Origin: Oscillospiraceae bacterium
GTDB lineage: Bacteria > Bacillota > Clostridia > Oscillospirales > Oscillospiraceae
Direction: 5' to 3'
Length of the DNA stretch: 27,564 nt
Assembly (NCBI GenBank): GCA_051867655.1
Contig: JBJDYV010000102.1
Location: forward strand, 1-27,564
Of the stretch, positions 14,173 to 26,974 are shown in pieces (the stretch's first letter is position 1; each line of letters opens with the position of its first letter). The notes under the pieces are model-generated. The model made no database searches. It saw nothing but the letters and a program-made list of their open reading frames with translations, and had not been told where the DNA came from. The position numbers were made by a program, and so were the translations under genes.

Positions 14173-14784
14173 TCAAGTGTCGCGCTCCACCGGCTCCAGG
14201 GACATGACCGACACCTCAAAGGCCGTGCGGCGCACGCTCTCGCCGTTTTCCTCCTTGGTGTACTCCCGGCTTTGAAGCCGTCCATTCAGCTTCAGCCCGT
14301 CGCCCACCTCCAGCTGACCGCACCAGGCGGCCAGGCCGCCCCATGCGATACAAGGTAAGTAATCCGCCCGCCCGTATTTCCGGTTGACCGCCAGCATCAT
14401 GTCGCAAATCTCCCGGCCCAGGGGCGTGCGGCGCACCACAGTCGGCTTGCACAGCACGCCGGCCAGAGTCAGTTCGTTCTTGTGGGGACCGTCTCCGGGC
14501 TCCAGCGTCCGGGCATAGACCGTGATGACCAGCTTGCTGCCCGTTCCGCTGCGGTTGTTGTAGGAGCGCACCTCGCCCTCCACCGCCAGCGTCACCCCCG
14601 GCTCCACCGCGGTCTGCCGGAGCAGGGGTTCGGCGGCCACAATGTTCAGCACGTCCTCCACACCGGACAAGCGGCTGACCCGCAGGGGAAATTGAAAATA
14701 GGAAACGCCGTGATTCTCATGGGACAGGACTGCGGGGCCGCCTGCCAGCCCCACCAGGGAAATATGGTTTTCATTCCACGCCAT
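14173..14784 (-). CDS. Single-stranded DNA-binding protein-like (two OB-fold-like halves).
   Basis: The C-terminal half resembles an SSB OB-fold (ICDMMLAVNR...LPCIAWGGLA...GDGLKLNGRLQSREYT.ENGE.VRRTAFEV), and the N-terminal half looks like a second divergent OB fold. The start is uncertain between 14784 and 14820. Confidence 0.5.
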   Translation of the reverse strand: MAWNENHISLVGLAGGPAVLSHENHGVSYFQFPLRVSRLSGVEDVLNIVAAEPLLRQTAVEPGVTLAVEGEVRSYNNRSGTGSKLVITVYARTLEPGDGPHKNELTLAGVLCKPTVVRRTPLGREICDMMLAVNRKYGRADYLPCIAWGGLAAWCGQLEVGDGLKLNGRLQSREYTKEENGESVRRTAFEVSVMSLEPVERDT

Positions 14785-14847
14785 CTGCACGTTTGCCACG
14801 CATCCTCTCGCTGTCTGCATGTGGCATTCTATGCGAAAAAGCCCGGC

Positions 14848-14857
14848 GGTATGCCCG
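14848..14857. repeat. Left target-site duplication (GGTATGCCCG) of the inserted element.
   Basis: An identical 10-mer at 21071-21080 abuts the other end. Joining the flanks rebuilds the hairpin AGCCCGGCGGTATGCCCGCCGGGCT, which is present intact at 21568-21598. Confidence 0.75.
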
Positions 14858-14884
14858 CAATGTCAATAAGTTAGGCTGAATCAA

Positions 14885-14909
14885 GGGCCAGATGCTTCGC
14901 ATCTGGCCC
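14885..14909 (+). terminator. Subterminal hairpin just inside the left IR (GGGCCAGATGC-TTC-GCATCTGGCCC). It may insulate the element from read-in transcription.
   Basis: A perfect 11-bp stem lies 27 bp inside the element end. Confidence 0.45.
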
Positions 14910-14995
14910 TTAACACTTTTCTCAAACCCAAGGAGGGCGTTAATTTGTATGCTTTGCTATTGAACTCTGTTCACAAAAGGTTTACATACCACTCA

Positions 14996-15024
14996 TTGAC
15001 AAAATCCTTTTTTCAGTTATACTA
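14996..15024 (+). promoter_or_regulatory. Sigma70-like promoter (TTGACA-16/17-TATACT) inside the element. It drives the leader, the 146-aa ORF and the transposase.
   Basis: It has a consensus -35 and a near-consensus -10. Confidence 0.55.
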
Positions 15025-15142
15025 TGAGTGGCCTTGGTAGCCCAGATAGTTGAGATTTTTGAATTTATTTGTTTTATCGTTTGTTTTATTTAGCCTGAAT
15101 TTTTAAAAACGCCGAGTTGCTATCAATGTGAAGTGTGATATG

Positions 15143-15212
15143 CACCGCGCACGATAAGATGTTTGTCCCGTTGTCGGAGGGGACGCATCTTTCGTGCGCG
15201 GTTTTTGTTTTT
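15143..15212 (+). terminator. Intrinsic terminator or attenuator at the end of a roughly 190-nt U-rich leader. The long stem is CACCGCGCACGATAAGATG...CATCTTTCGTGCGCGG with a nested GTCCC/GGGAC hairpin, followed by TTTTTGTTTTT.
   Basis: An imperfect 17-bp stem is followed by a T-run. It sits between the promoter at 14996 and the RBS of the 15303 ORF. Confidence 0.55.
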
Positions 15213-15302
15213 CCTTTCCAATCACAGGAGCAGACAGGCCTCGGAAGCTGGCTGTCCTGTGCGAGTATCGCTTCCGAATGGAACCAAATGGAGGATAAGT
15301 TG

Positions 15303-15743
15303 ATGAATAAATATAAGATTTTGCGTGTTTTTCTGGCTGTTTTCGTGTCCACCCTCGATGTTTTTGAGAAGGCGGTTTGGGTTGACCTTTCCGCTGATCG
15401 TGACACTTTGGAAGAAGTTGCCGCTGACAAGGCTGCTGTTTTAACCGAGGCTACTAAGGCTCTTATTTGGGAGGCTATCGGTTGCGCCGCTCCTGATATA
15501 AAGGGGGCTTATGTCGAGGTTATGGTTGAGAACCTTGCTTTCGATGGTTACTACAAGGCAGCTGTTCTTCCGCCTGACGTTGCTTTCGATGGTTGGACAC
15601 CTGAACTCAGCGACATGGTGAATGAAAACAGCGGCCTGATAAAAAAAGACTTGACGGCAATGCTGACCGACATGACAACGGCCTACCTCGGTGGTGATAA
15701 CGGAAGGAGCGATCCACATTATGAGATACGTCGCCGCGACTAA
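15303..15743 (+). CDS. Hypothetical 146-aa protein with a hydrophobic N-terminus. Its 3' end overlaps the transposase start by 23 nt.
   Basis: A GGAGGA RBS lies 7 nt before the ATG. I recognise no family signature. The N-terminal hydrophobic stretch (ILRVFLAVFVSTL) suggests a signal or anchor sequence. Confidence 0.45.
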   Translation: MNKYKILRVFLAVFVSTLDVFEKAVWVDLSADRDTLEEVAADKAAVLTEATKALIWEAIGCAAPDIKGAYVEVMVENLAFDGYYKAAVLPPDVAFDGWTPELSDMVNENSGLIKKDLTAMLTDMTTAYLGGDNGRSDPHYEIRRRD

Positions 15744-17013
15744 GGCTGCCCTCGCTGATGCAATCCGCGAGACGGCGGAACAGCATAGCGATGGCAAGCA
15801 GTTCAGTCGTCAGCGTAAGCTGACGCTGGACACCATGCTCCGTTTGCTGATCGGCGCGGAGGGCGGCTCTCTGGCTAAAGTTCTTCGTGAGGCGGGGGTC
15901 GAGGCGACCCCCGCCGCCCTCTCCCAGCGTCGTTCTCAGATTGACCCCAGCGTATTCCGCGAGGTGTTTACGCGCTTCAATGCAGCCTGTACCGATAACG
16001 AAACATTTCATGGCTACCGTGTCCTTGCTGTGGACGGAACCGTGGTTAATATGCCCCGCAACCCAGATGCACCAAGTTTCATACAAAACGACAGTGCGCC
16101 TGCTGGCTACAACCAAATGTTTCTGGTTCCGTTGCTAGACCTTAGAAACTACTGTTATGTAGATGCCGAGGTGACTCCTGCCCCTCAGAAAGACGAAATC
16201 GGTTCCTTGATAACAATGCTTAACCGCAATGACTTCGACAGAAAAACCCTCATTATTGCTGATCGCGGTTATGAGAGCTACAACCTCATAGCACACCTGC
16301 TCAAGAAGCCAAACACGGACTTTCTAATCCGCGTGAAGCAAAATCGCTCTGCAATGCGTGAAGTAGCACGGTTACCCATGCTTGAACTGGACTGCCAGAT
16401 TTCATTTTCCATCTGTACCACTCAAAAAAATTCCGACAAGCAGAACAAAAACTACGTCTTTTTGCAAGTCCCTAAGAAGAGCAAGCCGGAATCAAAAACG
16501 CGCCGTGGGCGCTGGGATCACGATAACTATTTCCCGATGCGGTTTAGAATTTGCCGTTTTCAGCTTGATGCTGGGAACTATGAGACCATTGCGACATCGT
16601 TACCCCAATCCTTCACTTTAGAGGATATAAAGGCCCTTTACCACATGCGCTGGGGCATTGAGACCAGCTTCCGCGATCTCAAGTACACCGTTGGACTTGT
16701 TCATCTTCATGGAAAAAGCGACCAGTTTGTTGAGCAAGAGATATACGCGGCCTTAACCGCTTTTAACTTCGCCAGCCGGATTGTCCGCGAGGTCGTGATC
16801 CAGCAACCGAAAGATGGCGTATATGCTTATCGCGTGAACTTCAAAAACGCTGTGGCGCTTGTGAAAGAGCATATTCGCAACCCGGAATTAGACAACGATA
16901 CACTTGTCCGGGAGATTGCAAAACACACTATTCCGATTAGACCGGGGCGGCAGGATCGCCGCAATCTCAAAGTCAAAGGCTTTGTGGGCTTTACCTATCG
17001 AATTGCAGCCTAA
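15721..17013 (+). CDS. IS4-family (DDE_Tnp_1) transposase.
   Basis: The C-terminus has the diagnostic YHMRWGIETSFRDLK (Y-2-R-3-E-6-K) block. Spaced D, D, E residues (ILAVDGT; IIADRGY) and an N-terminal FSRQRKLT-type motif are present. A GGAAGGAG RBS is present. Confidence 0.85.
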   Translation: MRYVAATKAALADAIRETAEQHSDGKQFSRQRKLTLDTMLRLLIGAEGGSLAKVLREAGVEATPAALSQRRSQIDPSVFREVFTRFNAACTDNETFHGYRVLAVDGTVVNMPRNPDAPSFIQNDSAPAGYNQMFLVPLLDLRNYCYVDAEVTPAPQKDEIGSLITMLNRNDFDRKTLIIADRGYESYNLIAHLLKKPNTDFLIRVKQNRSAMREVARLPMLELDCQISFSICTTQKNSDKQNKNYVFLQVPKKSKPESKTRRGRWDHDNYFPMRFRICRFQLDAGNYETIATSLPQSFTLEDIKALYHMRWGIETSFRDLKYTVGLVHLHGKSDQFVEQEIYAALTAFNFASRIVREVVIQQPKDGVYAYRVNFKNAVALVKEHIRNPELDNDTLVREIAKHTIPIRPGRQDRRNLKVKGFVGFTYRIAA

Positions 17014-17503
17014 CCCGAAAAAAGACAGGGGGCGCTTCCAGACGGAAGTGCCCCCTGTTGGCATTTATTTTTTGAAAACCCTGTTTTTGGCGTTCAAAAG
17101 GGGCTATTTTCAAAAAATAAATGTGTGCCCTATCTCAATAGACCAGAAAAGCCACCGAAATAGTGGAACGCCTGTCAGCCGATTTCAACAAGTATTGCAA
17201 ATCTGGCAGAAAAGAGCCTGTCTCCCTGCAAAACTGAATAGGAATGTCAATCGCAGTTTTTGAGCAAAGAATCAACTAGCCGGACAGATGCAGTAAAAAT
17301 AGAGGTTGTGAGTTTTTAAGGGGTGGGCATTTTTTGAAAAATCAGCCGCTCCGGTGTCCGTTAACTTAAGGAAATCGTAGAACTATCAACTAGCTGGCAA
17401 AAAGTATTAGAAATTAGCGCTGTTTACAAAAAATCGCGATAGCGCACCTCTTTTCAAACTTCGCAATAACTTGCGAAAAAAATAATTTTTTTGAGAAACT
17501 ATA

Positions 17504-17532
17504 TTGAATTTTGTCGCAGATTGGAATATCAT
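17504..17532 (+). promoter_or_regulatory. Sigma70-like promoter (TTGAAT-17-TATCAT) for the cargo operon. A small palindrome, CGCAATAACTTGCG, lies about 30 bp upstream.
   Basis: The hexamers sit 39 bp upstream of the XRE gene start. The palindrome is at 17463-17476. Confidence 0.5.
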
Positions 17533-17570
17533 AAAATTGTCCATTTAACTTCCAGTATGAGGTTTATATT

Positions 17571-17786
17571 ATGAAAATCAGCTACAAGAAATTGTGGATC
17601 ACGCTGATCGAGCGGGATATTAGTCCTGCCACGCTCCGCAAAGACTTGAATATTGCTACCGGAACAATGACAAAGATGCGCCGGAATGAGGAAGTGGCAC
17701 TGTCTGTCCTGTTGCGGATATGCGAGTATCTGGATTGCAATATTGGCGATATTTGCGATGCTGTAAGAGTAACTGAAGAAATGTAA
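17571..17786 (+). CDS. Small XRE/Cro-C1-type helix-turn-helix transcriptional regulator (HTH_26-like, 71 aa).
   Basis: The pattern MKISYKKLWITLIERDISPATLRKDLNIATGTMTKMRRNEEVALSVLLRICEYLDCNIGDI matches short stand-alone Cro-like HTH proteins. Confidence 0.8.
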   Translation: MKISYKKLWITLIERDISPATLRKDLNIATGTMTKMRRNEEVALSVLLRICEYLDCNIGDICDAVRVTEEM

Positions 17787-17811
17787 ATAATGTTTGTGGA
17801 GGAATAATAAA

Positions 17812-18033
17812 ATGAAGAATATTCTGGAATTATTTGGTTCGGAAAGCAGCAAACCCAGTATTACGAAAAAAACTGGGATTTTAACGAAACCGGGAGATAG
17901 ATTGGAAGCATATATCACAAAGTCTGGAAGAAATGTGCTAAAAGTACAAAAAGACAACGGAAATTCCAAATATAGTATAACTCAATACCCAACTGGGACT
18001 ATTGTTGAAACAAAAGTGACAAAAAAGAAATGA
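17812..18033 (+). CDS. Hypothetical 73-aa Lys-rich protein.
   Basis: A GGAGGA RBS lies 8 nt before the ATG at 17812. Coding potential is good and no family is recognised. Confidence 0.5.
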   Translation: MKNILELFGSESSKPSITKKTGILTKPGDRLEAYITKSGRNVLKVQKDNGNSKYSITQYPTGTIVETKVTKKK

Positions 18034-18082
18034 TTTTGATAAGGCTGTTGCAGGGATTTTCGATTGAAGGAGTGAACTTACT

Positions 18083-18988
18083 ATGGCATTTTGCGTTAAC
18101 TGCGGGCATGAAGTTCCAGACGGCGCAAAATTCTGTGCAAACTGCGGTGCGGCGGTAAATAGTGCAAATTCCGGTGCGCAAAGAAAAACAGTCTATGAGG
18201 GTGAAATGCACAAGTGCCCTAATTGTGGCGAAGTTCTCAATTCTTTTGTATCTGTATGTCCAGCGTGCGGATATGAACTAAGAGGAACAAAAGCATCGAA
18301 TTCTGTTCATGAGTTTGCGCTAAGATTAGAGAGGGCGCAATCAGAGGAACAAAGAATTACGCTTATTCGCAATTTCCCTATTCCCAATACAAAAGAAGAT
18401 ATATTCGAGTTTATGATTCTTGCATCAACCAATATTTCTGGAGAATATCAAAAGATTGTTTTCGATGCGTGGTTGGCTAAGTTTGAGCAGAGCTATAAAA
18501 AAGCAAAGCTGGTTTTTAGCAATGATTCTGATTTTGTCAAGTTTCAAAGCATATACGAACAGACCAACAAACAGATTAGCAAAGAGAAAAACATCCGTAC
18601 CGCTAAGACCATAGGCAATACTATTTCCAAATCCGCGCCCGCTTTACCTCGAATTGCTGTGTCTATTGGCTGGCTTATAAGTATCTTTGTTTTGATCCCA
18701 CTATGTGGAAGTAATCTTGATGTTGCTGGAACTAACTCCTATCAATTATTGCTGATAGTCGATTTTATTGCGGGCGCAATCGTATTGCCGTGGATTATTA
18801 GAGGAAAATCAAGTATTCCAGCTCTAATTACAGCGGTTGGTTTGATGATAAGCATAGTTGTGTTAATTCCTTTGTGTGGAAAAAACTTGGATGTCGCCGG
18901 CACAAATGCTTATCAATTAATTTTGATTATTGATATTGTTGCGAGTGTTGTAATTTTTGTTCGGGCCTTTAAAAAGAGAAAAGGATAA
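18083..18988 (+). CDS. Double zinc-ribbon membrane protein with a C-terminal internally duplicated 2-TM hairpin (B. subtilis YdjG/YdjH-like architecture).
   Basis: Two CxxC...CxxC ribbons are present (CVNCG...CANCG; CPNCG...CPACG). Two roughly 45-aa repeats (ISIFVLIPLCGSNLDVAGTNSYQLLLIVDFIAGAIVLPWIIRGK and ISIVVLIPLCGKNLDVAGTNAYQLILIIDIVASVVIFVRAFKK) are about 70% identical. An AAGGAG RBS is present. Confidence 0.75.
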   Translation: MAFCVNCGHEVPDGAKFCANCGAAVNSANSGAQRKTVYEGEMHKCPNCGEVLNSFVSVCPACGYELRGTKASNSVHEFALRLERAQSEEQRITLIRNFPIPNTKEDIFEFMILASTNISGEYQKIVFDAWLAKFEQSYKKAKLVFSNDSDFVKFQSIYEQTNKQISKEKNIRTAKTIGNTISKSAPALPRIAVSIGWLISIFVLIPLCGSNLDVAGTNSYQLLLIVDFIAGAIVLPWIIRGKSSIPALITAVGLMISIVVLIPLCGKNLDVAGTNAYQLILIIDIVASVVIFVRAFKKRKG

Positions 18989-19009
18989 ATCTGCATAGGA
19001 GGATATTTC

Positions 19010-20368
19010 ATGAGTTTATTTGGTAAAAAAACCGGCGGATTCATGGACGAAATCCGCTGTGACGAACCGAATTATTTGATTTGGAAATGGCATCCTGCCG
19101 ACTCTCAGAAAGGCACGAACAACCGGGAAAATGCTATCCGGTGGGGATCTTCTCTGCGCGTAAAAGACGGCGAAGTAGCAGTATTTGTCTATAAGCAGAA
19201 AGACGGCACTATGCAGGATTTCATTGTTGGCCCATTCGACCAGATCATCGAAACCGCAAACTTCCCTGTATTGGCAAGCATCGTCGGCTTGGCCTATGAT
19301 GGCGGCACTCCGTTCCAAGCAGAGGTTTACTTCATCAATCTGGCGCGAATTATCCAAGTGAAGTTTGGCGTACCGTTCTTTGATGTTTATGACCCGAGAT
19401 TTGCCGATTTTGGCGTTCCTGTTGCTGTCAGAGGTACGGTCAGCTTCCAGATTTCCGACTATCGGGAGTTCATCAAGCTACATAGGCTCAACAGCTTCAA
19501 CTTGGAGGATTTCCAGAAGCAAATCCGCGATGCGGCATGCCGCTATGTCAAAGATGCTGTCGCTAACGCACCTGCCGCCAACAACATCCCCGTTGTCCAG
19601 ATTGAAAGCAAGACGGCGCAGATCAACGATGCCGTAGAGTACGATATTAGCGAACGTCTGAAAGAGGACTTTGGCGTCACGGTTTCCGGCGTTGATATTG
19701 GTGCGATTGAGATTGACAAATCCAGCGATGGATATGCTCAGCTTATGGCGATTACACAGCAAGCCACCGCCGCAACTGTGCAGGCACAGACCGCCGCTAA
19801 TATTAAGAATATCCATGATAAGCAGCGGATTGAAGCCGAGAACTACGAAGAAACGCTCCGTATTCAGCGTGAAGAAGCGCAGTATGCCCAGCATAAGCAG
19901 ACGCAGAGCGCCCACTTTACGGCATTCCAAGTGGAAAAACAAGCGGAAGTCGGCGTAGCTGGTGCGGAAGCACTGGGCCAAATGGGCGCAAACGGCGCTG
20001 GAACGGTTGATTTCGGCAGTGGTGGAACTGGCTTTAATCCCGCCGCTATGATGGCTGGCATGGCCGTTGGCGGCGCTATAGGTCAGAATATAGCTGGCAC
20101 GATGAATAACATGATGTCTGGCATGAACCAGCCGACAGGAACTACACCGCCGCCCGTTCCTGTTGTCGCGTACCATATCGCCGTGAACGGTCAGGCAACA
20201 GGGCCGTTTGACCTTGCCGTATTGAAGCAGATGGCCGTTTCTGGACAGCTTACGGCCAGCAGCTTGGTCTGGAAAGCTGGAATGAGCGAATGGGCCAAAG
20301 CAGAAACGGTTGACGAGTTAAACACTCTGTTTGCAAACGCAATGCCGCCTATTCCCCCTACTGAATGA
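19010..20368 (+). CDS. Soluble SPFH/band-7 family protein (B. subtilis YdjI-like, the so-called virion core protein family) with a C-terminal DUF4339/GYF-like domain.
   Basis: The N-terminal block has the family pattern (F.DEIRCDEP...LIWKWH...LRVKDGEVAVFV...GPFDQIIETANFPVL...FQAEVYFINL...FGVPFFDVYDPRF). A Q/A-rich coiled-coil linker and a Gly/Met-rich low-complexity segment follow, then a C-terminal DUF4339 signature (YHIAVNGQATGPFDLAVLKQMAVSGQLT..SLVWKAGMSEWAKAETV.EL). An AGGAGGA RBS is present. Confidence 0.8.
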   Translation: MSLFGKKTGGFMDEIRCDEPNYLIWKWHPADSQKGTNNRENAIRWGSSLRVKDGEVAVFVYKQKDGTMQDFIVGPFDQIIETANFPVLASIVGLAYDGGTPFQAEVYFINLARIIQVKFGVPFFDVYDPRFADFGVPVAVRGTVSFQISDYREFIKLHRLNSFNLEDFQKQIRDAACRYVKDAVANAPAANNIPVVQIESKTAQINDAVEYDISERLKEDFGVTVSGVDIGAIEIDKSSDGYAQLMAITQQATAATVQAQTAANIKNIHDKQRIEAENYEETLRIQREEAQYAQHKQTQSAHFTAFQVEKQAEVGVAGAEALGQMGANGAGTVDFGSGGTGFNPAAMMAGMAVGGAIGQNIAGTMNNMMSGMNQPTGTTPPPVPVVAYHIAVNGQATGPFDLAVLKQMAVSGQLTASSLVWKAGMSEWAKAETVDELNTLFANAMPPIPPTE

Positions 20369-20377
20369 GGGAATTCT

Positions 20378-20938
20378 ATGAAAGTTAAATCATTGAAATG
20401 CCCCGAATGTAGAGCGAACCTTGAAATCGAAGATGATCGCACATCTTGTTATTGTCAGTACTGCGGATGTAAAATCATTCTTGATGATGAAAAACAAGAG
20501 TACACCATCAACAAAAACATCAATGTAAACAAGAACATCCACAAGAGATATACTGATGATGCGGATGTAATCCGTGCCAAAAACGAAGCAAGTAAAGACA
20601 GCAGAGATTTCAAACAAATGCTCATTCTTTTGGGATTTATGATGCTGATTCCCATCAGCATTTTCCTTGGTTTGCATATCAATAAAACAATTGCACAATA
20701 TGAAGGAAAAATCAGCGCCGGCTATTACAAGGACTTAGTTGGCAAGGATTATGAAACGGTCGCGGCTCATTTTGAAGCTGCGGGGTTTACTAATATCGAA
20801 CTGATTGATTTGGATGATTCGGGTCTTGCGTTTTGGAATGAAGGAAAGGTAGATACCATTTCAGTTGGCGGCGATACAGATTTTGAGAGCGTAGACTGGT
20901 TTTATCCAGACACAAAAGTAGTTATTTCGTACCATTGA
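20378..20938 (+). CDS. Zinc-ribbon single-pass membrane protein with a C-terminal extracytoplasmic domain.
   Basis: An N-terminal CPEC...CQYCGC ribbon, one TM helix (MLILLGFMMLIPISIFLGL) and a roughly 90-aa C-terminal domain are present. The start sits 10 nt after the SPFH stop, with a GAGGGA RBS. Confidence 0.7.
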   Translation: MKVKSLKCPECRANLEIEDDRTSCYCQYCGCKIILDDEKQEYTINKNINVNKNIHKRYTDDADVIRAKNEASKDSRDFKQMLILLGFMMLIPISIFLGLHINKTIAQYEGKISAGYYKDLVGKDYETVAAHFEAAGFTNIELIDLDDSGLAFWNEGKVDTISVGGDTDFESVDWFYPDTKVVISYH

Positions 20939-20987
20939 AACTTTCCTTTTCGGAAATTCTCCTGGTTCCGCCAACTGAATAATGAAG

Positions 20988-21040
20988 AAAAAAGCACCCA
21001 CCCTGATTTCCAAGAGGAAAAGGGGGTGGGTGCTTTTTGT
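20988..21040 (+). terminator. Intrinsic terminator of the cargo operon (AAGCACCCACCC...GGGTGGGTGCTTTTTG), just inside the right IR.
   Basis: A 12-bp stem is followed by a T-run, and it sits 50 bp after the last cargo gene. Confidence 0.75.
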
Positions 21041-21051
21041 TAGACGCTCAA

Positions 21052-21070
21052 ATGCTTAAGTTAATGACAT
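21052..21070. repeat. Right terminal inverted repeat of the inserted element (GCTTAAGTTAATGACATTG).
   Basis: Its reverse complement matches the left end (14858-14876) at 16 of 19 positions. It is followed immediately by the GGTATGCCCG TSD (21071-21080). Confidence 0.7.
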
Positions 21071-21244
21071 TGGGTATGCCCGCCGGGCTTTTCTGAGACT
21101 GTTAAAAAAGTCTTTCGGACTTTTCCGACAAAAGAATGCAGCCCGCCGCAGCAATCATCGGGCGTTGCGCTGCTTTTCTTTCATTCTATGTCTGACAGAG
21201 CATTTAAAAATATTGAAGCTGGTATAATTCCCGAATTCACACCA

Positions 21245-21424
21245 TCATTTCTCTGTTTCCGCGTCTGAATCAGAATCCCTGCGTGTCTGACTTTCGGCCT
21301 GTTTCGCCTGTTTTTCCTTTTGGAATTGTGCAAAAAATTTTTCTCCGATCATGCATGTGAGCCGATCCGCCGTGCAAGCATTGCGGCAGCCGGGGCATTC
21401 AAAAAAATCCGGGTCGTACATCAT
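21245..21424 (-). CDS. Hypothetical 59-aa Cys-rich small protein (MMYDPDFFECPGCRNACTADRLTCMIGEKFFAQFQKEKQAKQAESQTRRDSDSDAETEK). It falls below the ORF-track cutoff.
   Basis: A GAAGGAA RBS is present. The protein has a CPGC-x3-C-x6-C metal-binding-like N-terminus and an acidic, Ser-rich tail. Its promoter carries the perfect palindrome TTGCAATAGATTGCAA over the -35 (about 21470-21500). Support comes from these reading-frame and signal cues only. Confidence 0.4.
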   Translation of the reverse strand: MMYDPDFFECPGCRNACTADRLTCMIGEKFFAQFQKEKQAKQAESQTRRDSDSDAETEK

Positions 21425-21567
21425 TCATCGTTCCTTCTCTGTTGAAATGCGCTTTCAAGACATCTTCATTTATAAAATATATCAAGAATTGCAATCTATT
21501 GCAACTGCTGTTTTTTATTTTGTGAAGTTGTTCTTGATCCGCTTTCCGGAAAAAAATTTTTGACAAG

Positions 21568-21600
21568 CTGAAGCCCGGCGGTATGCCCGCCGGGCTTTTC
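21568..21600. terminator. Intact GC-rich hairpin (AGCCCGGCGG-TATG-CCCGCCGGGCT, then TTTTCTTT). It is an intrinsic terminator downstream of eutQ and the second copy of the hairpin that the transposon split at 14841/21071.
   Basis: It is 30 bp identical to the rebuilt target of the insertion, and a T-run follows it on the plus strand. Confidence 0.6.
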
Positions 21601-21601
21601 T

Positions 21602-22036
21602 TTACCCCTGATTTTGCCAATCCGCCGGGTAGACGAAATACAGGAACCGCGCCCGCCCGGTAACGGAAAACTGGATGGACGACCCCTTGGGAATATAGAT
21701 GACCTCCCCCGGTTCGGCGGTGACGCGCTCCCCGCCAATGAGGATGGACAACTCGCCCTCGATGACATAGTCCATCTCATCGTAGTTCAGCTTCCAGGGG
21801 AAGGTGGTGTCCTCCATCTCCATCAGCCCCGCGCCCAGGCGGGGTGACTGCTCCAAAGTAAACAGGTCGTGGGTGTACACCCGGTCGTTCGGGTTTCCCG
21901 TGTCCATGCGGTCGGCCTCGGTGGCGCGCAGGGCGGGGACGGCCACTTTCCGCACGCCCCGCGCCGCGCTGCACTTACAGCCCAGTTTTTCCAGCAGCAC
22001 CTGGCGCACCAGGGCCTCCAATTCGGTCTTATCCAC
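21602..22036 (-). CDS. eutQ: Ethanolamine utilisation protein EutQ (cupin).
   Basis: A C-terminal cupin block is present (DYVIEGELSI...GEVIYIPKGSSIQF), with an amphipathic N-terminus. The GTG start overlaps the eutH stop (GTGGATAA) and an AAAGGA RBS is present. Confidence 0.8.
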   Translation of the reverse strand: MDKTELEALVRQVLLEKLGCKCSAARGVRKVAVPALRATEADRMDTGNPNDRVYTHDLFTLEQSPRLGAGLMEMEDTTFPWKLNYDEMDYVIEGELSILIGGERVTAEPGEVIYIPKGSSIQFSVTGRARFLYFVYPADWQNQG

Positions 22037-23114
22037 GTTCCACGTCCTTTCTGGTAATGAACATGGCCACCGCCACGGCGGTGACGCCGCCCACCAGCTT
22101 GCCCACGATCATGGGGAAGATCATGGTGGAGTCGAACCCGGCGGTAAAGCCCAGGTGGTCGCCGAACACGAAGGCGGCAGACACGGCGAAGGCCACGTTG
22201 AGGACCTTGCCCCGCTCATCCATCTCATGCATCATGCCGAACATGGGAATGTTGTTGGCCAGAGTGGCTACCATGCCGGCGGCCGCCTTGTCATTCATGC
22301 CCAGCAGGTGGCCCAGCTTCATCAGGGGCTTTTGGAACACCTTGGTGATGACATACACCAGCGGGAACGCGCCCGCCAGCACGATGGCGATGCCGCCCAC
22401 GGTCAGGTAGCCCTCGTCCAGGGAGGCCATGCCGGGAATGACCGTGATGCCGGTCAGGGCCTCGATGATGGAGGCGGCCAGGCCGATGGTGATGATGATC
22501 ACAATGATCCTGCCGAACACCTGAAAACCCTTGACCATACCGTTGGGAATCAGCCAAAGGCCCAGGGCGATCAGCACCGCGATGATGACGATGGGGATCA
22601 GGTTGCGCAGGATCATCAGCACGTTGAAGCCCGCCACCAGGCCGCCCACGAAGGAGCCGATGGGGATGGTGATGATGCCCGCCAGCACACCCCGGGCCAG
22701 AGCGCTCCGGTCCTCGGGCCTGATGATGCCCAGAGCCACCGGGATGGTAAACACGATGGTGGGACCCATCATGGCTCCCACGATCAGCCCGCCGAACTTC
22801 CCGGCTTCCTCGGTCTGGGCCAGCTCCATGGCCAGGGGTGCGCCGCCCATGTCGTTGGCCAGGATGGTACCCGCAAACACAGCGGGGTCGGCCCCCACCA
22901 GGTTAAACAGGGGCACCACCACCGGGCGCAGAAGGTTGGCCAGCACCGGCGCCAGGGTAATGATCCCGATCATGGACAGCGCCAGGCTGCCCATGGCGAG
23001 AATGCCCTCTTCAAATTTCTCGCCCAGCCCGAAGTGGTTGCCGATGATGCGGTCAATGGCGCCCAGGGCCATAAAGATCACCATGATATAGATGATGATT
23101 TCATTGATGGACAT
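22029..23114 (-). CDS. eutH: Ethanolamine permease EutH.
   Basis: It is a polytopic membrane protein with typical EutH-family sequence (MSINEIIIYIMVIFMALGAIDRIIGN...). The start at 23114 has an AAGGGGA RBS; the upstream in-frame extension is unlikely. Confidence 0.85.
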   Translation of the reverse strand: MSINEIIIYIMVIFMALGAIDRIIGNHFGLGEKFEEGILAMGSLALSMIGIITLAPVLANLLRPVVVPLFNLVGADPAVFAGTILANDMGGAPLAMELAQTEEAGKFGGLIVGAMMGPTIVFTIPVALGIIRPEDRSALARGVLAGIITIPIGSFVGGLVAGFNVLMILRNLIPIVIIAVLIALGLWLIPNGMVKGFQVFGRIIVIIITIGLAASIIEALTGITVIPGMASLDEGYLTVGGIAIVLAGAFPLVYVITKVFQKPLMKLGHLLGMNDKAAAGMVATLANNIPMFGMMHEMDERGKVLNVAFAVSAAFVFGDHLGFTAGFDSTMIFPMIVGKLVGGVTAVAVAMFITRKDVERG

Positions 23115-23315
23115 GGAACATGTCCCCTTTCTCAGTTGCCTCGCAGAGTTTCCGCCGAAGGCGGAAAAAATAATCCGTCCGGGCAGGACATGCGCCTGCG
23201 CAGGACACCTTAACTTGCGGCCATCGTGGCCGCAACCGCCTTTGCACAGCAAAGGCGAGGGGGGTATCGAAGCCGGGGGCTCCCGGCTTCGTATCTAGGG
23301 GGGACAAAGTCCCCC

Positions 23316-23561
23316 CTAGAGGGAGTCTACGATGCCCACAATGGCGGCGTCCACGGGGATGTCCCGCCCCGCCGCCACCCGGGCCGCGCCGCCGGTGGCC
23401 ACCAGGACGCGTTCGCCCTCCCCGGCGCCCACGCAGTCGGCGCAGATCAGGGTCTGCTCAGACCCGGCCAGGCGCACGGTCAGGAAGGCCTGTCCCACCA
23501 GCCGCGCCGCCTTTTTCGTCGCCCAGAGGTTTCCCTCCACCGTTCCTAACAACAATGACAC
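23316..23561 (-). CDS. eutN: BMC vertex (pentamer) protein EutN/CcmL/PduN family.
   Basis: The N-terminal G-x-V-x7-L-x4-L-x-V pattern and CADCVGAGEGERVLVATGGAAR match EutN/CcmL. Confidence 0.8.
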   Translation of the reverse strand: MSLLLGTVEGNLWATKKAARLVGQAFLTVRLAGSEQTLICADCVGAGEGERVLVATGGAARVAAGRDIPVDAAIVGIVDSL

Positions 23562-23802
23562 CCATCTCCCTCAGCTCCCGCTCCAGCACCACGAGCCGCC
23601 GGTACATCCCCAGGGGCGCGCTTTTGCGGTATTGTCGGTATTCCAGCCCGTCCCGCAGGGCATACACCCGGACCCCCGCCAGCAGGGCGGCGAGCACCTC
23701 GGTCTCCTCCCGCCCCCGGGGGGCGCAGTTCACCAGCCGCCCCATGGCGTCCACCGGCAGCCGTGTGATCCAGAGAGTTCGGCCACGCCATTCGGCTGTC
23801 AC
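23458..23802 (-). CDS. Hypothetical 114-aa eut-operon protein, sitting in the position of the conserved unknown between pduL and eutN in Firmicutes eut loci. Its 3' end overlaps eutN by about 100 nt.
   Basis: Its ATG overlaps the pduL stop (ATGA), which suggests coupled translation. The first 80 or so residues look protein-like (RLVVLERELREMGVIVV). The tail that overlaps eutN is a Gly-rich, low-complexity read-through. Confidence 0.4.
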   Translation of the reverse strand: MTAEWRGRTLWITRLPVDAMGRLVNCAPRGREETEVLAALLAGVRVYALRDGLEYRQYRKSAPLGMYRRLVVLERELREMGVIVVRNGGGKPLGDEKGGAAGGTGLPDRAPGRV

Positions 23803-24410
23803 AGAATGATCATGCTCCGGTCGCCCTTTTTGAAGCCGCAGGCGTTGGCCTCGTCGTAGTCCAGATGGACCATGGTGGCATATTTGGGGGAGACGCGCAC
23901 CACCACGTCGTCAAAGACCAGGGGGCGGGCGGTGAAGGTCTTTAGCTTCACCGTCTGGTTGTCGGACACGCCCCACCGGGCGGCGTCTTCCGGAGTCATG
24001 TGGATGTGCCGCAGGGCCGCGATCAGGCCGTGATCCAGAGTGATCATCCGCTCGCCGTTGCGCACGGTCAGGCCCGGCGTGTTTTTCAGGTCGCCGCTCT
24101 GCCGCACCGGCGGCGTGATGCCCAGAGCCACCGCGTCGGTCAGGGAGATCTCCACCTGGCTCTCGCTCCGCTCCGGGCCGAGCACCACCACGTTTTTCAG
24201 CTCCCCCTTCGGCCCCACCAGAGTCACCCGCTCCTGGCAGGCGAACTGGCCGGGCTGGGACAGGTCCTTGACCGGGGTCAGGCGGTGGCCCGTGCCGAAC
24301 AGGGCGTCCACATGGGCGCGGGACAGGTGGATGTGCCGTCCCGAGGCCTCCATTTCAATGGTCAGCAGGCGGACGATCTCTGCCGCCAGAGCGTCAACAC
24401 TTACGTTCAT
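23799..24410 (-). CDS. pduL: Phosphate propanoyl/acetyl-transferase PduL (EutD-analog).
   Basis: Two PduL repeats with the characteristic RHIH motif are present (GRHIHLSRAHVDALFG and LRHIHMTPEDAARWG). Confidence 0.8.
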   Translation of the reverse strand: MNVSVDALAAEIVRLLTIEMEASGRHIHLSRAHVDALFGTGHRLTPVKDLSQPGQFACQERVTLVGPKGELKNVVVLGPERSESQVEISLTDAVALGITPPVRQSGDLKNTPGLTVRNGERMITLDHGLIAALRHIHMTPEDAARWGVSDNQTVKLKTFTARPLVFDDVVVRVSPKYATMVHLDYDEANACGFKKGDRSMIIL

Positions 24411-24525
24411 ACTTTCCCGCCTCTAAGCAAACCCGCACAATTGCATCTGCGGCGTCTTGCGGGAATTTGCGCGGCATGAATGCGCAACTTTTTCTCGAAA
24501 TACACCAAGTATGTCTTCAAAAAAG

Positions 24526-25092
24526 TTACTTTTCCTGCCGCGAAATTCCTTCGCAATCCGCTCTTGCTGAATCGTGTGGGTTTGCTTTCAATTTGATCAT
24601 CATGATCCAGCACAGGGAAGACAGCCGGTTCATGGCCTGGATGATGTCGGGCCGCTTCACCGAACCGTCGTAATTCTTAAACGCCTCGTACCCCGCCAGC
24701 TCCGCCTGACGCACCACTGTGCGCAGGCGGTTAACGTACAGGATGGCGGGATCGTCGGTGACACTGGCCATGAAGTGGGGCTGCCCGTAATACTTCTCCG
24801 GGTAATGGGAGTGCTCCCGCAGCTCGTCGGCGGTGTAGCCGCACAAGTTGATCTCGCCCACCGGTTTCCCCATGACCTCGCAGGGGATCAGCCCCCGCAC
24901 GAAGTCCAGCATCTCCTGCAGATCCATGGTCAGCTGCACATGGCCGGCCTGCACCGCGTGGTGCTGGCACACCAGGATCTCCGCCTCCAGGCGGTCGATC
25001 ATCCCCCGGAACCGGATGCGGGGGTGGTCCTTGCGCACCAGGGTCTTGTGGTCCAGATGGGTCATGTGCTCGGGCTTCTGCCGCGCCGCCAT
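24526..25092 (-). CDS. eutT: Ethanolamine-utilisation cob(I)alamin adenosyltransferase EutT (short Firmicutes form).
   Basis: The C-terminal block RPDIIQAMNRLSSLCWIMMIKL aligns with E. coli EutT RPDILQALNRLSSTVYVMMI. The start lies 3 nt after the eutM stop. Confidence 0.7.
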   Translation of the reverse strand: MAARQKPEHMTHLDHKTLVRKDHPRIRFRGMIDRLEAEILVCQHHAVQAGHVQLTMDLQEMLDFVRGLIPCEVMGKPVGEINLCGYTADELREHSHYPEKYYGQPHFMASVTDDPAILYVNRLRTVVRQAELAGYEAFKNYDGSVKRPDIIQAMNRLSSLCWIMMIKLKANPHDSARADCEGISRQEK

Positions 25093-25095
25093 AGG

Positions 25096-25398
25096 TTACA
25101 GGTCGCTTCCGGTCTCGCCCTTCCCGTGGGGCAGGATGGCGTCCACCTCGGCGTGGGGGCGGGGGATGACGTGCACGGAGATCAGCTCGCCCACCTTTTC
25201 GGCGGCGGCGGCTCCCGCGTCGGTGGCCGCCTGCACGGCGCCCACGTCGCCCCGGACCATGACGGTCACCAGGCCGCCGCCCACCTGCTCCTTGCCCACC
25301 AGCTGGACGTTGGCCGCCTTCACCATGGCGTCGGCCGCCTCGATGGCCCCCACCAGTCCTCTTGTTTCCACCATGCCAAGTGCGTTGGTATTTGCCAT
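25096..25398 (-). CDS. eutM: BMC-H shell protein EutM/PduA family.
   Basis: [31 protein letters not shown]...VIPRPH is a canonical BMC-domain sequence. An AGGAGGA RBS is present. Confidence 0.9.
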
Positions 25399-25517
25399 TG
25401 TTTCATTCCTCCTGATCGGTTTTGTGTGTTGTTTCTTGATCGTCGTACCCCCGGACCCGGTTTCGGGCTTGGGTTTTTTCGTCGGTTTTTGCGGGGTATT
25501 TTCCCCCAGCAGATCAT

Positions 25518-26969: not shown

Positions 26970-26974
26970 TCGTC

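What the first reader, a model, noticed from the sequence alone, without database searches (positions are those of the whole stretch)
14841..21092. Cargo-carrying IS4-family transposon of about 6.2 kb, inserted into a terminator hairpin with a perfect 10-bp target duplication
This resolves the window's low-GC island into one discrete mobile unit with sequence-visible ends and an intact paralogous target for comparison.
- The sequence left of 14858 ends AGCCCGGCGGTATGCCCG. The sequence right of 21070 resumes GGTATGCCCGCCGGGCTTTTC.
- Joining these and removing one copy of GGTATGCCCG rebuilds exactly the hairpin that occurs intact at 21568-21598.
- The inserted ends are imperfect inverted repeats. 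The left end is CAATGTCAATAAGTTAGGC. The reverse complement of the right end is CAATGTCATTAACTTAAGC. They match at 16 of 19 positions.
- GC content drops sharply inside the element.
- A 10-bp TSD and a CA-initiated IR both fit IS4-family transposition.
- The element is about four times the size of a plain IS. It carries a regulated leader, a 146-aa ORF, the transposase and a five-gene non-transposition operon, so it looks like a transporter IS rather than a composite transposon.
Basis: seen in the sequence. Interest (0 to 1): 0.75.

Follow-up and report, generated by a model that had tools for sequence, protein, structure and literature searches.

The report
Cargo-carrying IS4 transposon in a terminator
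A 6.2-kb jumping gene of the IS4 family, carrying a five-gene membrane-protein cargo, has inserted into the loop of a terminator hairpin; it is a sound but fairly ordinary example of a group of gut-Clostridia transposons that routinely target such hairpins and ferry accessory genes.

Summary
The element runs from 14858 to 21072 (6215 bp). Its 19-bp terminal inverted repeats match at 16/19 positions. It is flanked by a perfect 10-bp duplication, GGTATGCCCG. Removing the element and one duplicate rebuilds a 31-nt hairpin identical to the intact copy at 21571-21601.

The transposase is a full-length IS4-family DDE enzyme with the YREK motif. There is one transposase and one IR pair, so this is a transporter IS, not a composite transposon.

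- **Sibling:** a diverged sibling (transposase 84% identical; same HTH, zinc-ribbon and SPFH cargo) sits in a different hairpin with its own 10-bp duplication.
- **Active relative:** a 68% relative carrying an MmeI restriction-modification gene occurs at five or more sites, each with its own duplication.
- **Targeting:** across 52 reconstructed sites, insertion into the centre of terminator-like hairpins is a clade property.
- **Own terminators:** most members carry terminator-like hairpins just inside both ends.
- **Cargo variety:** cargo varies between relatives.

No empty site and no second identical copy were found. Verdict: new member of a known kind; moderate interest.

The parts
14848..14857 (.). 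Left copy of the 10-bp target-site duplication GGTATGCCCG (loop plus part of the stem of the split terminator hairpin).
14858..14876 (+). Left terminal inverted repeat, CAATGTCAATAAGTTAGGC.
   Evidence: (I12). It matches the clade consensus CAATGTCATTAAGTTAAG.
14883..14911 (+). Left-end hairpin AAGGGCCAGATGC-TTC-GCATCTGGCCCTT, followed by a T-rich tract. It is positioned to stop transcription entering from the left flank.
   Evidence: Fold. The hairpin is conserved at this position, with different stem sequences, in L168, L001, L002, L003, L075 and L087.
14996..15023 (+). Near-consensus sigma-70-type promoter, TTGACA-16-TATACT (11/12).
   Evidence: This is a consensus match only.
15144..15212 (+). 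Conserved long hairpin plus T-run (intrinsic-terminator-like) in the leader between the promoter and orf146/transposase. Proposed to attenuate transposase expression.
   Evidence: 27 predicted pairs, 10 of them with compensatory changes across 5 relatives. No Rfam family matches.
15306..15743 (+). 146-aa ORF overlapping the transposase start. No family match.
   Evidence: the gene is called in the Logan contigs. It is 34% identical to the ORF at the same place in L001. The L168 homologue has an in-frame stop.
15721..17013 (+). IS4-family DDE transposase, 430 aa from the ATG (440 aa from the GTG at 15691).
   Evidence: (24% identity to E. coli IS4 InsG, E 6e-15).
17024..17059 (+). Terminator-like hairpin after the transposase gene.
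17062..17123 (.). Perfect 17-bp inverted repeat, CATTTATTTTTTGAAAA/TTTTCAAAAAATAAATG. It is the last block of backbone DNA shared with relatives that carry other cargo.
   Evidence: (I7).
17185..17420 (+). Spacer with repeated TCAACTAG-N16-18-AAAAAT modules and an internal IRL-like sequence (GGTGTCCGTTAACTTAAGG, 17353-17371). It is conserved in relatives; its function is unknown.
17504..17532 (+). Promoter-like site upstream of the cargo operon (TTGAAT-17-TATCAT).
   Evidence: Consensus match; conserved in L168.
17571..17786 (+). Cargo gene 1: 71-aa Cro/C1-type HTH regulator (HTH_26).
   Evidence: It is 93% identical to the L168 counterpart.
17794..18033 (+). Cargo gene 2: small ORF (79 aa from TTG; called as 73 aa in the Logan contigs). 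No family match.
18083..18988 (+). Cargo gene 3: 301-aa protein with an N-terminal double zinc ribbon and a repeated hydrophobic C-terminal half.
19010..20368 (+). Cargo gene 4: 452-aa SPFH (Band_7_1) protein with a C-terminal GYF_2 domain.
20378..20938 (+). Cargo gene 5: 186-aa protein with an N-terminal CxxC...CxxC zinc-ribbon-like motif. It is absent from the L168 sibling.
20989..21038 (.). Right-end hairpin with an A-run before it and a T-run after it (terminator-like in both directions).
   Evidence: (I3). It is conserved in L168.
21054..21072 (-). Right terminal inverted repeat (reverse complement CAATGTCATTAACTTAAGC).
21073..21082 (.). Right copy of the 10-bp target-site duplication GGTATGCCCG.
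21571..21601 (.). Intact paralogous hairpin, 31 nt identical to the reconstructed empty site. It is a reference for the target, not part of the element.
   Evidence: (D9, D12).

Best explanation
Window 14858-21072 is one transposable unit: an IS4-family insertion sequence that carries passenger genes inside its single pair of inverted repeats (a transporter IS).

**How it moved (inferred).** The DDE transposase binds the two CAATGTCA...TTAAG ends and excises the whole 6.2 kb by cut-and-paste. This mechanism is inferred from the IS4 family (IS10, IS50, IS231A) and is not shown here. The enzyme then joins the ends to staggered cuts 10 bp apart. Those cuts are centred on the axis of a G+C-rich palindrome, here the terminator hairpin between the Cys-rich ORF and the SSB-like gene. 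Repair of the staggered cuts gives the GGTATGCCCG duplication.

**Why a hairpin (shown by comparison).** Hairpin-centre targeting is a property of the whole clade. It places the element in intergenic DNA.

**Replacement terminators (function inferred).** Terminator-like hairpins just inside each end plausibly replace the terminator that the insertion destroys. They would also shield the transposase gene from outside transcription.

**Transposase expression (inferred).** Expression is probably kept low by an internal promoter followed by a conserved terminator-like leader.

**Cargo (low confidence).** The cargo is an HTH regulator, a small ORF, a zinc-ribbon membrane protein, an SPFH-GYF protein and a second zinc-ribbon protein. 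It has its own promoter-like site. It most likely encodes a membrane-associated or envelope-stress module. The zinc-ribbon and SPFH-GYF pair is a common chromosomal module that was captured once and has since travelled with this IS lineage.
For: **Ends and duplication**
- Ends, TSD and exact rebuild of the hairpin.

**Transposase identity and integrity**
- IS4-family assignment and full length.
- The YREK motif is read directly from the translation.
- One transposase and only two IRs in the window.

**Sibling element**
- L168 (5573 bp) has a transposase 84% identical, HTH 93%, zinc-ribbon 55% and SPFH 88%.
- The spacer has 84% mean column identity and the right end is 77% identical.
- Its own perfect 10-bp TSD, CCGACCGGTC, lies in a different hairpin in a different genome.

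**Related cargo-bearing elements**
- A 6126-bp element with a 68% identical transposase and MmeI cargo occurs at five or more sites, each with a different perfect 10-bp TSD.
- Other relatives with cargo and perfect 10-bp TSDs: L002, L003, L075, L009, L087, L091, L006 and L010.

**Hairpin targeting**
- Across 52 reconstructed sites the median MFE is -15 kcal/mol, against -4.2 for random 40-mers from the same loci.
- 75% of sites against 21% of controls have at least 8 pairs centred on the TSD, p about 1e-13 to 1e-16.

**Other features**
- 46 of 53 elements pass the fold-energy cut-off at the left end, and the same number at the right end.
- The leader hairpin shows compensatory changes.
- The element has 45% GC in a 60-63% GC contig.
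- A native zinc-ribbon plus SPFH-GYF pair occurs without a transposase in L172.
Against: - **No empty site.** The nearest genomes (SSB 88-91% identical) carry unrelated BlaI/BlaR1-like genes between EutQ and SSB, and they lack the hairpin.
- **No second close copy.** All four Logan contigs with the exact transposase map to this same site. The nearest other copy is only 84% identical.
- **Nothing is experimentally shown.** Transposition, terminator function, leader attenuation and cargo function are all untested.
- **Imperfect IRs.** The IRs match at 16/19 positions, so present-day activity is not certain.
- **Possible two-part origin.** An internal IRL-like sequence at 17353-17371 and a decayed IRR-like stretch near 17129-17147 leave room for one.
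- **Cargo unannotated for defence.** The cargo proteins match no PADLOC model, and their PHROGs matches are all to families of unknown function apart from a weak HTH hit, so the cargo function rests on domain content.
Confidence: 0.9

Rival explanations
1. Two-part origin. The unit is an IS (IRL to a decayed inner IRR near 17147) fused to a neighbouring mobile insertion cassette (inner IRL-like at 17353 to the outer IRR). The cargo half could still move on its own, mobilised in trans. That would also explain how cargo is exchanged between backbones.
For: - The internal IRL-like sequence has the same orientation as IRL. In L168 it reads CAATGTCCGTTGACTTAATG, with a perfect CAATGTC tip.
- L001 and L005 have an IRR-like sequence, TCTTATCTTAATGCCATAG, about 120 bp after the transposase gene.
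- L002 and L075 share cargo (MmeI 68%, DUF6414 84%) although their transposases are only 47% identical, and they show no DNA homology outside the cargo.
Against: - The TSD flanks the outer ends, not the inner ones.
- In L001 the inner IRR-like sequence is not followed by a copy of the left-flank 10-mer.
- The inner IRL-like sequence is conserved as its own sequence and does not track each element's outer IRs (compare the IRs).
- It is present in relatives with unrelated cargo, so it belongs to the backbone.
- No free cassette (inner IRL to IRR, without a transposase) was seen.
- This rival concerns origin and is compatible with the main explanation for the present insertion.
Confidence: 0.2
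2. A plain IS of about 2.3 kb landed next to a pre-existing low-GC island. On this view the outer IRR at 21054-21072 is a chance match or a solo IR, and the 6.2 kb never moved as one piece.
For: - Plain relatives are 1.55-1.70 kb.
- A terminator follows the transposase gene.
- Backbone DNA homology with relatives carrying other cargo stops near 17123.
Against: - The perfect 10-bp TSD and the exact hairpin rebuild require that both outer ends were joined to one target in a single event.
- L168 carries the same backbone plus cargo, bounded in the same way, at another site.
- The IR pattern has 0.02 expected chance hits.
Confidence: 0.03
3. Assembly or binning artefact: a foreign low-GC contig piece was joined into an Oscillospiraceae MAG contig at a repeated hairpin.
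For: - There is a sharp GC drop.
- The hairpin is repeated 500 bp away.
- Two Logan contigs start exactly at 14829.
Against: - Independent assemblies of other runs cross the junctions with identical sequence. L084 covers 14749-17019. L081 covers 14829-21781. L086 runs from the EutQ side into the element.
- A chimera would not create a 10-bp duplication with IRs at exactly the break points.
Confidence: 0.02

Closest known systems
IS4 of Escherichia coli and the 'IS4 subgroup' of the IS4 family (De Palmenaer et al. 2008, PMC2266710)
   Same: - Single-ORF DDE transposase with the YREK motif.
- The ends fit the subgroup signature -AATR--------WTW-. The IS4 IR TAATGCCGATCAGTTAAGG matches about 14 of 19 positions of the clade consensus.
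- The duplication is about one helical turn: 12 bp for the K-12 copy and 10 bp here.
[quoted passage not shown]
   Different: - Only 24% protein identity to InsG.
- The element is 6.2 kb, against the subgroup's typical 1.40-1.65 kb, because of the passenger genes.
- The host is Clostridia.
IS231 / MIC231 modular elements of the Bacillus cereus group (IS231 subgroup)
   Same: IS4 family with 10-12 bp duplications and target preference. It is the classic case of IS4-family elements that carry extra passenger DNA, reaching up to 5.4 kb (PMC2266710).
   Different: - The 5'-CAT ends are not met here; the ends are CAA.
- IS231 passenger DNA lies between the left IR and the transposase. Here the main cargo lies downstream of the transposase.
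- The host group is different.
- MICs lack a transposase, whereas this element has one.
Transporter IS (tIS) as defined by ISfinder/ISsaga (PMC3129680)
   Same: An IS copy that includes passenger genes unrelated to transposition, bounded by one IR pair and one TSD.
   Different: Nothing essential. This is an instance of the category in an IS4-subgroup-like clade.
Palindrome/REP-targeting IS such as ISRm22 (IS4 family), IS1397/ISKpn1 (IS3) and IS621/ISPpu9 (IS110) (PMC1525189)
   Same: Insertion into extragenic palindromes, which avoids gene disruption.
   Different: - The targets here are diverse, non-repeated terminator-like hairpins rather than one REP family.
- The cut is centred on the hairpin axis with a 10-bp duplication.
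- The IS110 elements use a different enzyme and make no comparable duplication (the last point is from general knowledge).
pspA-ydjGHI module of Bacillus subtilis (PMC8581546), for the cargo only
   Same: A soluble SPFH protein is encoded directly downstream of genes for membrane proteins that, in B. subtilis, recruit it to the membrane.
   Different: - No PspA gene is present here.
- Homology to YdjG, YdjH or YdjI was not tested.
- This SPFH protein has a GYF_2 domain.
- The resemblance is a lead, not a test.

Membership tests
IS4 family | DDE transposase of the DDE_Tnp_1 type that scores above the curated family cut-off. | tested here: met
   NCBIfam NF033592 scores 170.3 bits (cut-off 115) over model positions 11-331 of 332. 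Pfam PF01609 gives E 2e-23.
IS4 family | Y-(2)-R-(3)-E-(6)-K signature. | tested here: met
   YHMRWGIETSFRDLK in the translation of 15691-17013. Motif definition from PMC2266710.
IS4 family | Transposase in a single ORF without a frameshift. | tested here: met
   One uninterrupted ORF of 430-440 aa.
IS4 family | Terminal inverted repeats starting 5'-CA, and a duplication of about one helical turn. | tested here: met
   The IRs start CAATG.., match at 16/19 positions, and the TSD is 10 bp.
IS4 subgroup (De Palmenaer 2008) | End signature -AATR--------WTW- and direct repeats of 10-13 bp. | tested here: met
   The clade consensus CAATGTCATTAAGTTAAG and both window IRs fit the signature by direct reading against Table 1 of PMC2266710.
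IS4 subgroup (De Palmenaer 2008) | Transposase clusters with IS4-subgroup transposases. | tested here: inconclusive
   Only a pairwise comparison with InsG was possible: 24% identity, E 6e-15. No IS231 or IS4Sa reference sequences were compared and no tree was made.
IS4 subgroup (De Palmenaer 2008) | Typical size 1400-1650 bp. | tested here: not met
   This element is 6215 bp. Plain relatives with the same ends are 1554-1698 bp. Size is a description of the subgroup rather than a strict criterion.
IS231 subgroup | Conserved 5'-CAT ends. | tested here: not met
   The ends are CAA. Signature from PMC2266710.
Transporter IS (tIS) | Passenger genes unrelated to transposition lie inside one IR pair with one transposase. 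| tested here: met
   Five cargo ORFs plus orf146 lie between IRL and IRR. There is one transposase and only two IR matches in the window.
Transporter IS (tIS) | The target duplication flanks the whole unit. | tested here: met
   GGTATGCCCG at 14848-14857 and 21073-21082.
Transporter IS (tIS) | The same backbone plus cargo is found at another site with a different duplication. | tested here: met
   This is met by a diverged sibling only. L168 (3878-9450) has the TSD CCGACCGGTC and a transposase 84% identical. No near-identical second copy was found.
Composite (compound) transposon | Two IS copies flank the cargo. | tested here: not met
   There is a single transposase gene and no further IR matches.
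Mobile insertion cassette (MIC) | IR-bounded cargo without a transposase. | tested here: not met
   An intact transposase is present.

The most novel reading that the evidence does not exclude
The element may represent a so far undescribed, widespread group of IS4-subgroup transposons in gut Clostridia, defined by four features:
1. They recognise the axis of terminator hairpins as their target.
2. They carry replacement terminators at both ends, so that insertion is nearly neutral for neighbouring genes.
3. They have a conserved 'cargo slot' downstream of the transposase: an AT-rich palindrome, TCAACTAG repeat modules and an internal IRL-like site.
4. Through that slot, unrelated modules are swapped between backbones. 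Examples are MmeI restriction-modification, AbiE, a D-Ala-D-X ligase/racemase cluster, a beta-lactamase-family protein and this SPFH module.
Probability: 0.25. Interest if true: 0.55.

Novelty: new member of a known kind. Interest (0 to 1): 0.38.

Why it matters
For this contig, the result explains the low-GC island as one foreign unit and marks its exact limits. It also shows that the SPFH and zinc-ribbon genes are mobile cargo rather than core genes.

More broadly, the comparison set points to a sizeable clade of IS4-family elements in Oscillospiraceae and related gut Firmicutes. These elements insert into terminator hairpins and carry defence or resistance-type genes. One 6.1-kb member with an MmeI enzyme is seen in hundreds of assemblies and at several sites. 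Such elements are easy to miss in annotation because only the transposase gets labelled. They are a plausible route for moving small accessory modules between gut bacteria.

None of this changes the current understanding of IS4-family transposition.

Tried and rejected
**Empty site**
- Exact-protein look-ups of the SSB-like gene failed with two different start codons.
- The Cys-rich ORF and EutQ are found only next to the element.
- Homologues of the SSB-like protein (88-91% identical) led to related genomes. There the EutQ-SSB interval holds BlaI/BlaR1-like genes and no hairpin. They are therefore not usable as empty sites.

**Logan contigs starting at 14829**
- I first read this as a k=31 graph branch caused by a co-existing empty allele.
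- I rejected it as evidence. A variant just left of 14829 would give the same start, and L081 runs through the right junction without a break.

**Collection scans**
- The GTDB representative genomes and the JGI metagenomes hold no relative above 69% identity.

**Cargo and RNA searches**
- The cargo proteins have no tblastn match in the first 80 loci.
- PADLOC gave nothing, and the PHROGs hits were uninformative.
- Rfam had no family at gathering score, and only sub-threshold hits in the leader.
- PDB sequence searches found nothing for the transposase and only a GYF-domain hit for the SPFH protein.

**Other ideas tested**
- Upstream small ORFs sit at the same position across the clade, but mostly show no detectable similarity to each other. 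The L168 copy of orf146 has an in-frame stop. I therefore do not call orf146 a transposition protein.
- A hybrid-promoter idea was considered: the IR tip contains TTGACA facing outward. The spacing to any -10-like hexamer in the left flank does not fit (direct reading).
- The inner IRR-like sequence in L001 is not a functional end, because no TSD follows it.

Full report
**1. Observation**

The junctions read exactly as described, with coordinates off by one or two bases.

- On the left...AGCCCGGCGGTATGCCCG is followed at 14858 by CAATGTCAATAAGTTAGGC.
- On the right, GCTTAAGTTAATGACATTG ends at 21072 and is followed by GGTATGCCCGCCGGGCTTTTC.
- The element is therefore 14858-21072, which is 6215 bp.
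- The 10-bp direct repeat GGTATGCCCG lies at 14848-14857 and 21073-21082.
- The repeat finder reports the inverted pair 14858-14876 / 21054-21072 (I12), which matches at 16/19 positions.
- The same call shows two 100% direct repeats. 14839-14858 equals 21571-21590, and 21073-21094 equals 21580-21601.
- Together these mean the empty site would be identical over 31 nt to the intact hairpin at 21571-21601 (checked).
- A degenerate IR pattern with up to three mismatches hits only the two ends in the whole window, against 0.02 hits expected.
- The intact hairpin occurs once.
- GC content is 45.1% inside the element, against 59.6% and 62.7% outside.
- Independent Logan assemblies of four sequencing runs contain identical sequence and cross the junctions. 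This is not a misassembly.

**2. What the parts are**

*Transposase.* The ORF at 15721-17013 passes the NCBIfam IS4 model: 170 bits against a cut-off of 115, with nearly full model coverage. It also matches Pfam DDE_Tnp_1. It contains YHMRWGIETSFRDLK, the Y-(2)-R-(3)-E-(6)-K signature that defines the family (definition in PMC2266710). It aligns with E. coli IS4 InsG at 24% identity, E 6e-15.

*Upstream region.* In order along the + strand, upstream of the transposase, there are:
- a hairpin directly after IRL (14883-14911);
- a near-consensus promoter (14996-15023, 11/12);
- a long hairpin with a T-run (15144-15212), conserved in five relatives, with compensatory changes at 10 of 27 pairs;
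- a 146-aa ORF with no family match, which overlaps the transposase start.

*Downstream backbone.* After the transposase come a terminator-like hairpin (17024-17059), a perfect 17-bp AT-rich inverted repeat (17062-17123) and a spacer.

*Cargo.* A promoter-like site (17504-17532) precedes five same-strand ORFs:
- an HTH_26 regulator;
- a small ORF;
- a 301-aa protein with a double zinc ribbon and a hydrophobic repeat;
- a 452-aa Band_7_1 (SPFH) plus GYF_2 protein;
- a 186-aa zinc-ribbon-like protein.

*Right end.* A strong hairpin flanked by an A-run and a T-run (20989-21038) lies 15 nt before IRR.

*Searches that found nothing.* There is no PADLOC hit. Rfam has no family at gathering score.

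**3. Relatives and what they show**

*The ends are a clade signature.* Scans of GTDB representative genomes and JGI metagenomes with the transposase gave 160 loci, at most 69% identical. Nearly all carry the same ends, with consensus CAATGTCATTAAGTTAAG. Most are plain IS of 1.55-1.70 kb.

*Hairpin targeting is a clade property.* For 52 complete copies I reconstructed the empty site.
- Forty-three have a perfect 10-bp duplication; the rest match at 8 or 9 of 10.
- Most sites are strong hairpins with the duplication at their centre. They often have an A-run before and a T-run after. Examples are L003 gaaccGCCGAAAGGCggttc and L075 aaccaCCCCTCGGGGtggtt.
- Median MFE is -15 kcal/mol, against -4.2 for random 40-mers from the same loci.
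- 75% of sites against 21% of controls have at least eight pairs centred on the duplication. The tests give p = 5e-16 (Mann-Whitney, fold energies) and p = 4e-13 (Fisher, at least six centred pairs).
- The hairpin target in the window is therefore the clade's normal target and not an accident.

*Elements carry their own hairpins.* Forty-six of 53 elements pass the fold-energy cut-off within the first 75 nt, and the same number within the last 100 nt. I read these as replacements for the terminator that insertion splits, and as insulation for the transposase gene. That function is an inference.

**4. Does the 6.2 kb move as one piece?**

Three lines of evidence say yes.

*a. The duplication.* The duplication and the exact hairpin rebuild can only arise if both outer ends were joined to one target.

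*b. A sibling with the same cargo.* The closest SPFH homologue with a long contig led to L168-L171. L168 carries a 5573-bp element with these properties:
- transposase 84% identical, HTH 93%, zinc-ribbon protein 55%, SPFH 88%;
- spacer with 84% mean column identity, right end 77% identical;
- ends CAACGGCAGTGAATTAAGC / CAATGCCAATGAATTAAGG;
- its own perfect duplication, CCGACCGGTC;
- insertion in the hairpin AAAAACAGCCGACCGACCGGTCGGCTGTTTTT, between a LysR gene and a DUF3048 gene of another organism.

Backbone and cargo have thus been inherited together and have inserted at two or more different hairpins.

*c. An active cargo-bearing relative.* A transposase 68% identical (P0280, indexed in 434 blocks of the collection) sits in a 6126-bp element. 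That element holds a 121-aa ORF, the transposase, an MmeI-type enzyme and a 216-aa ORF, and it has perfect 18-bp IRs. It is found at five or more different sites, each with its own perfect 10-bp duplication, most of them in terminator-like hairpins.

*Other cargo-bearing relatives with perfect duplications:*

| Locus | Size | Cargo |
|---|---|---|
| L002 (Flavonifractor sp. An82) | 6434 bp | MmeI + DUF6414 |
| L075 | 6145 bp | same cargo as L002 |
| L009 | 9120 bp | two-component system, D-Ala-D-Ala-ligase-family protein, alanine racemase, C39-like peptidase |
| L087 | 6004 bp | beta-lactamase-family/SLH protein |
| L091 | 5608 bp | HTH + AbiEii |

L002 and L075 share cargo (68-84% protein identity), yet their transposases are only 47% identical and there is no DNA homology outside the cargo. 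This suggests cargo exchange or repeated capture.

**5. Origin and function of the cargo**

The SPFH-GYF protein has more than 8000 homologues; the 120 best listed are 78-88% identical. In L172 a zinc-ribbon protein and the SPFH-GYF protein form a two-gene unit in an ordinary chromosomal neighbourhood with no transposase. The cargo was probably captured from such a locus.

The arrangement is a membrane protein followed by a soluble SPFH protein. It recalls ydjG, ydjH and ydjI of B. subtilis, where the SPFH protein is recruited to the membrane and links PspA to it (PMC8581546). I did not test homology, so I give a membrane or envelope-stress role at low confidence only.

**6. What was not found**

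- No empty site was found. The nearest genomes have different genes in the EutQ-SSB interval and lack the hairpin.
- No near-identical second copy was found.
- The start of two Logan contigs exactly at 14829 looked like a graph branch at the junction. It is ambiguous, because L081 crosses the right junction unbroken.

**7. Comparison with known systems**

- *Family.* The element meets every defining feature of the IS4 family that I could test.
- *Subgroup.* Its ends fit the IS4-subgroup signature (-AATR--------WTW-, direct repeats of 10-13 bp). They do not fit the CAT ends of the IS231 subgroup (PMC2266710; IS4 ends read).
- *Passenger genes.* IS with passenger genes are an established category, the transporter IS (PMC3129680). 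Within the IS4 family they were first described for IS231/MIC231. The 2008 survey stated that such modularity had not yet been seen in other IS4 subgroups.
- *Palindrome targeting.* This is known for ISRm22 (IS4 family) and for IS3 and IS110 members (PMC1525189). The 2008 survey also noted striking target-arm specificity in the IS4 subgroup.
- *Nearest named IS.* One public annotation labels a 69% relative as IS1675.

**8. Verdict**

The element is a new member of a known kind: an IS4-family transporter IS. The clade-level picture is the more interesting by-product. It comprises hairpin-centre targeting, terminators at both ends, and a variable cargo position downstream of the transposase. It rests on comparative sequence evidence only.

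Noticed in passing
window 17185-17420; also L002 11442-11740, L005 1500-1640, L168 about 6200-6420: The spacer between the transposase and the cargo holds repeated modules of the form TCAACTAG-N16-18-(T)AAAAAT. There are 2-3 in the window, 4 in L002/L004 and 2 in L005. They are conserved in relatives that carry unrelated cargo. They could be promoters, protein-binding sites or relics.
   Followed up: partly
window 17353-17371; L168 about 6360-6380: An internal sequence resembles the left IR and has the same orientation as IRL. It reads GGTGTCCGTTAACTTAAGG in the window and CAATGTCCGTTGACTTAATG in L168. It is conserved as its own sequence and does not track each element's outer IRs.
   Followed up: partly
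window 21083-21601: The 59-aa Cys-rich ORF (21245-21424, minus strand) is bracketed by two copies of the same 31-nt hairpin: the interrupted one and the intact one. Related genomes have BlaI/BlaR1-like genes in this EutQ-SSB interval instead. The interval is therefore variable between species.
   Followed up: partly
window 14829 (start of Logan contigs L081 and L082): Contigs from two different runs begin exactly 30 nt before the first base that would differ between the filled and the empty site. This is as expected for a k=31 graph branch. However, the right junction is not broken in L081, so the cause is unresolved.
   Followed up: partly
L185-L191 (e.g. L185 6216-12341): A 6126-bp relative with perfect 18-bp IRs carries an MmeI-type restriction-modification enzyme. 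It is present at five or more distinct sites with different 10-bp duplications. Its transposase is indexed in 434 blocks of the public collection.
   Followed up: yes
L009 2331-11450: A 9.1-kb relative carries a response regulator, a histidine kinase, a C39-like peptidase, a D-Ala-D-Ala-ligase-family protein and an alanine racemase upstream of the transposase. The layout is reminiscent of D-Ala-D-Ser-type glycopeptide-resistance clusters. The ligase specificity was not examined.
   Followed up: partly
L041 7813-11377 and L051 7809-11378 (Clostridium manihotivorum / Haloimpatiens): Two otherwise plain copies are about 1.9 kb longer than usual. The extra ORF begins MPVRRVEIPKPNGGTRLLGIP..., which looks like a group II intron reverse transcriptase. 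It may be an intron inside the IS rather than cargo. It was not checked against Pfam.
   Followed up: no
L168 4300-4720: The homologue of orf146 in the sibling element is interrupted by an in-frame TAA. The ORF may therefore be dispensable or decaying. Small ORFs at the same position in other relatives show no detectable similarity to it.
   Followed up: partly
window 14858-14869 and 21061-21072 (IR tips): Read outward, the left IR tip contains a perfect -35 hexamer (TTGACA) 3 nt from the end. The right tip has ATGACA. No suitably spaced -10 is present in the left flank here, but hybrid promoters could form at other sites.
   Followed up: no
window 14173-14820 (minus strand) relative to 14858: The element lies only about 40-75 nt upstream of the SSB-like (PRK05813-type) gene, depending on the start codon used. 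It separates that gene from whatever lay upstream. An effect on its expression is possible but was not assessed.
   Followed up: no
window 21602-27564: An ethanolamine-utilisation cluster (EutQ at 21602-22036; an EutH-like membrane protein at 22029-23252, by synteny with L175) runs to the right of the insertion region.
   Followed up: no
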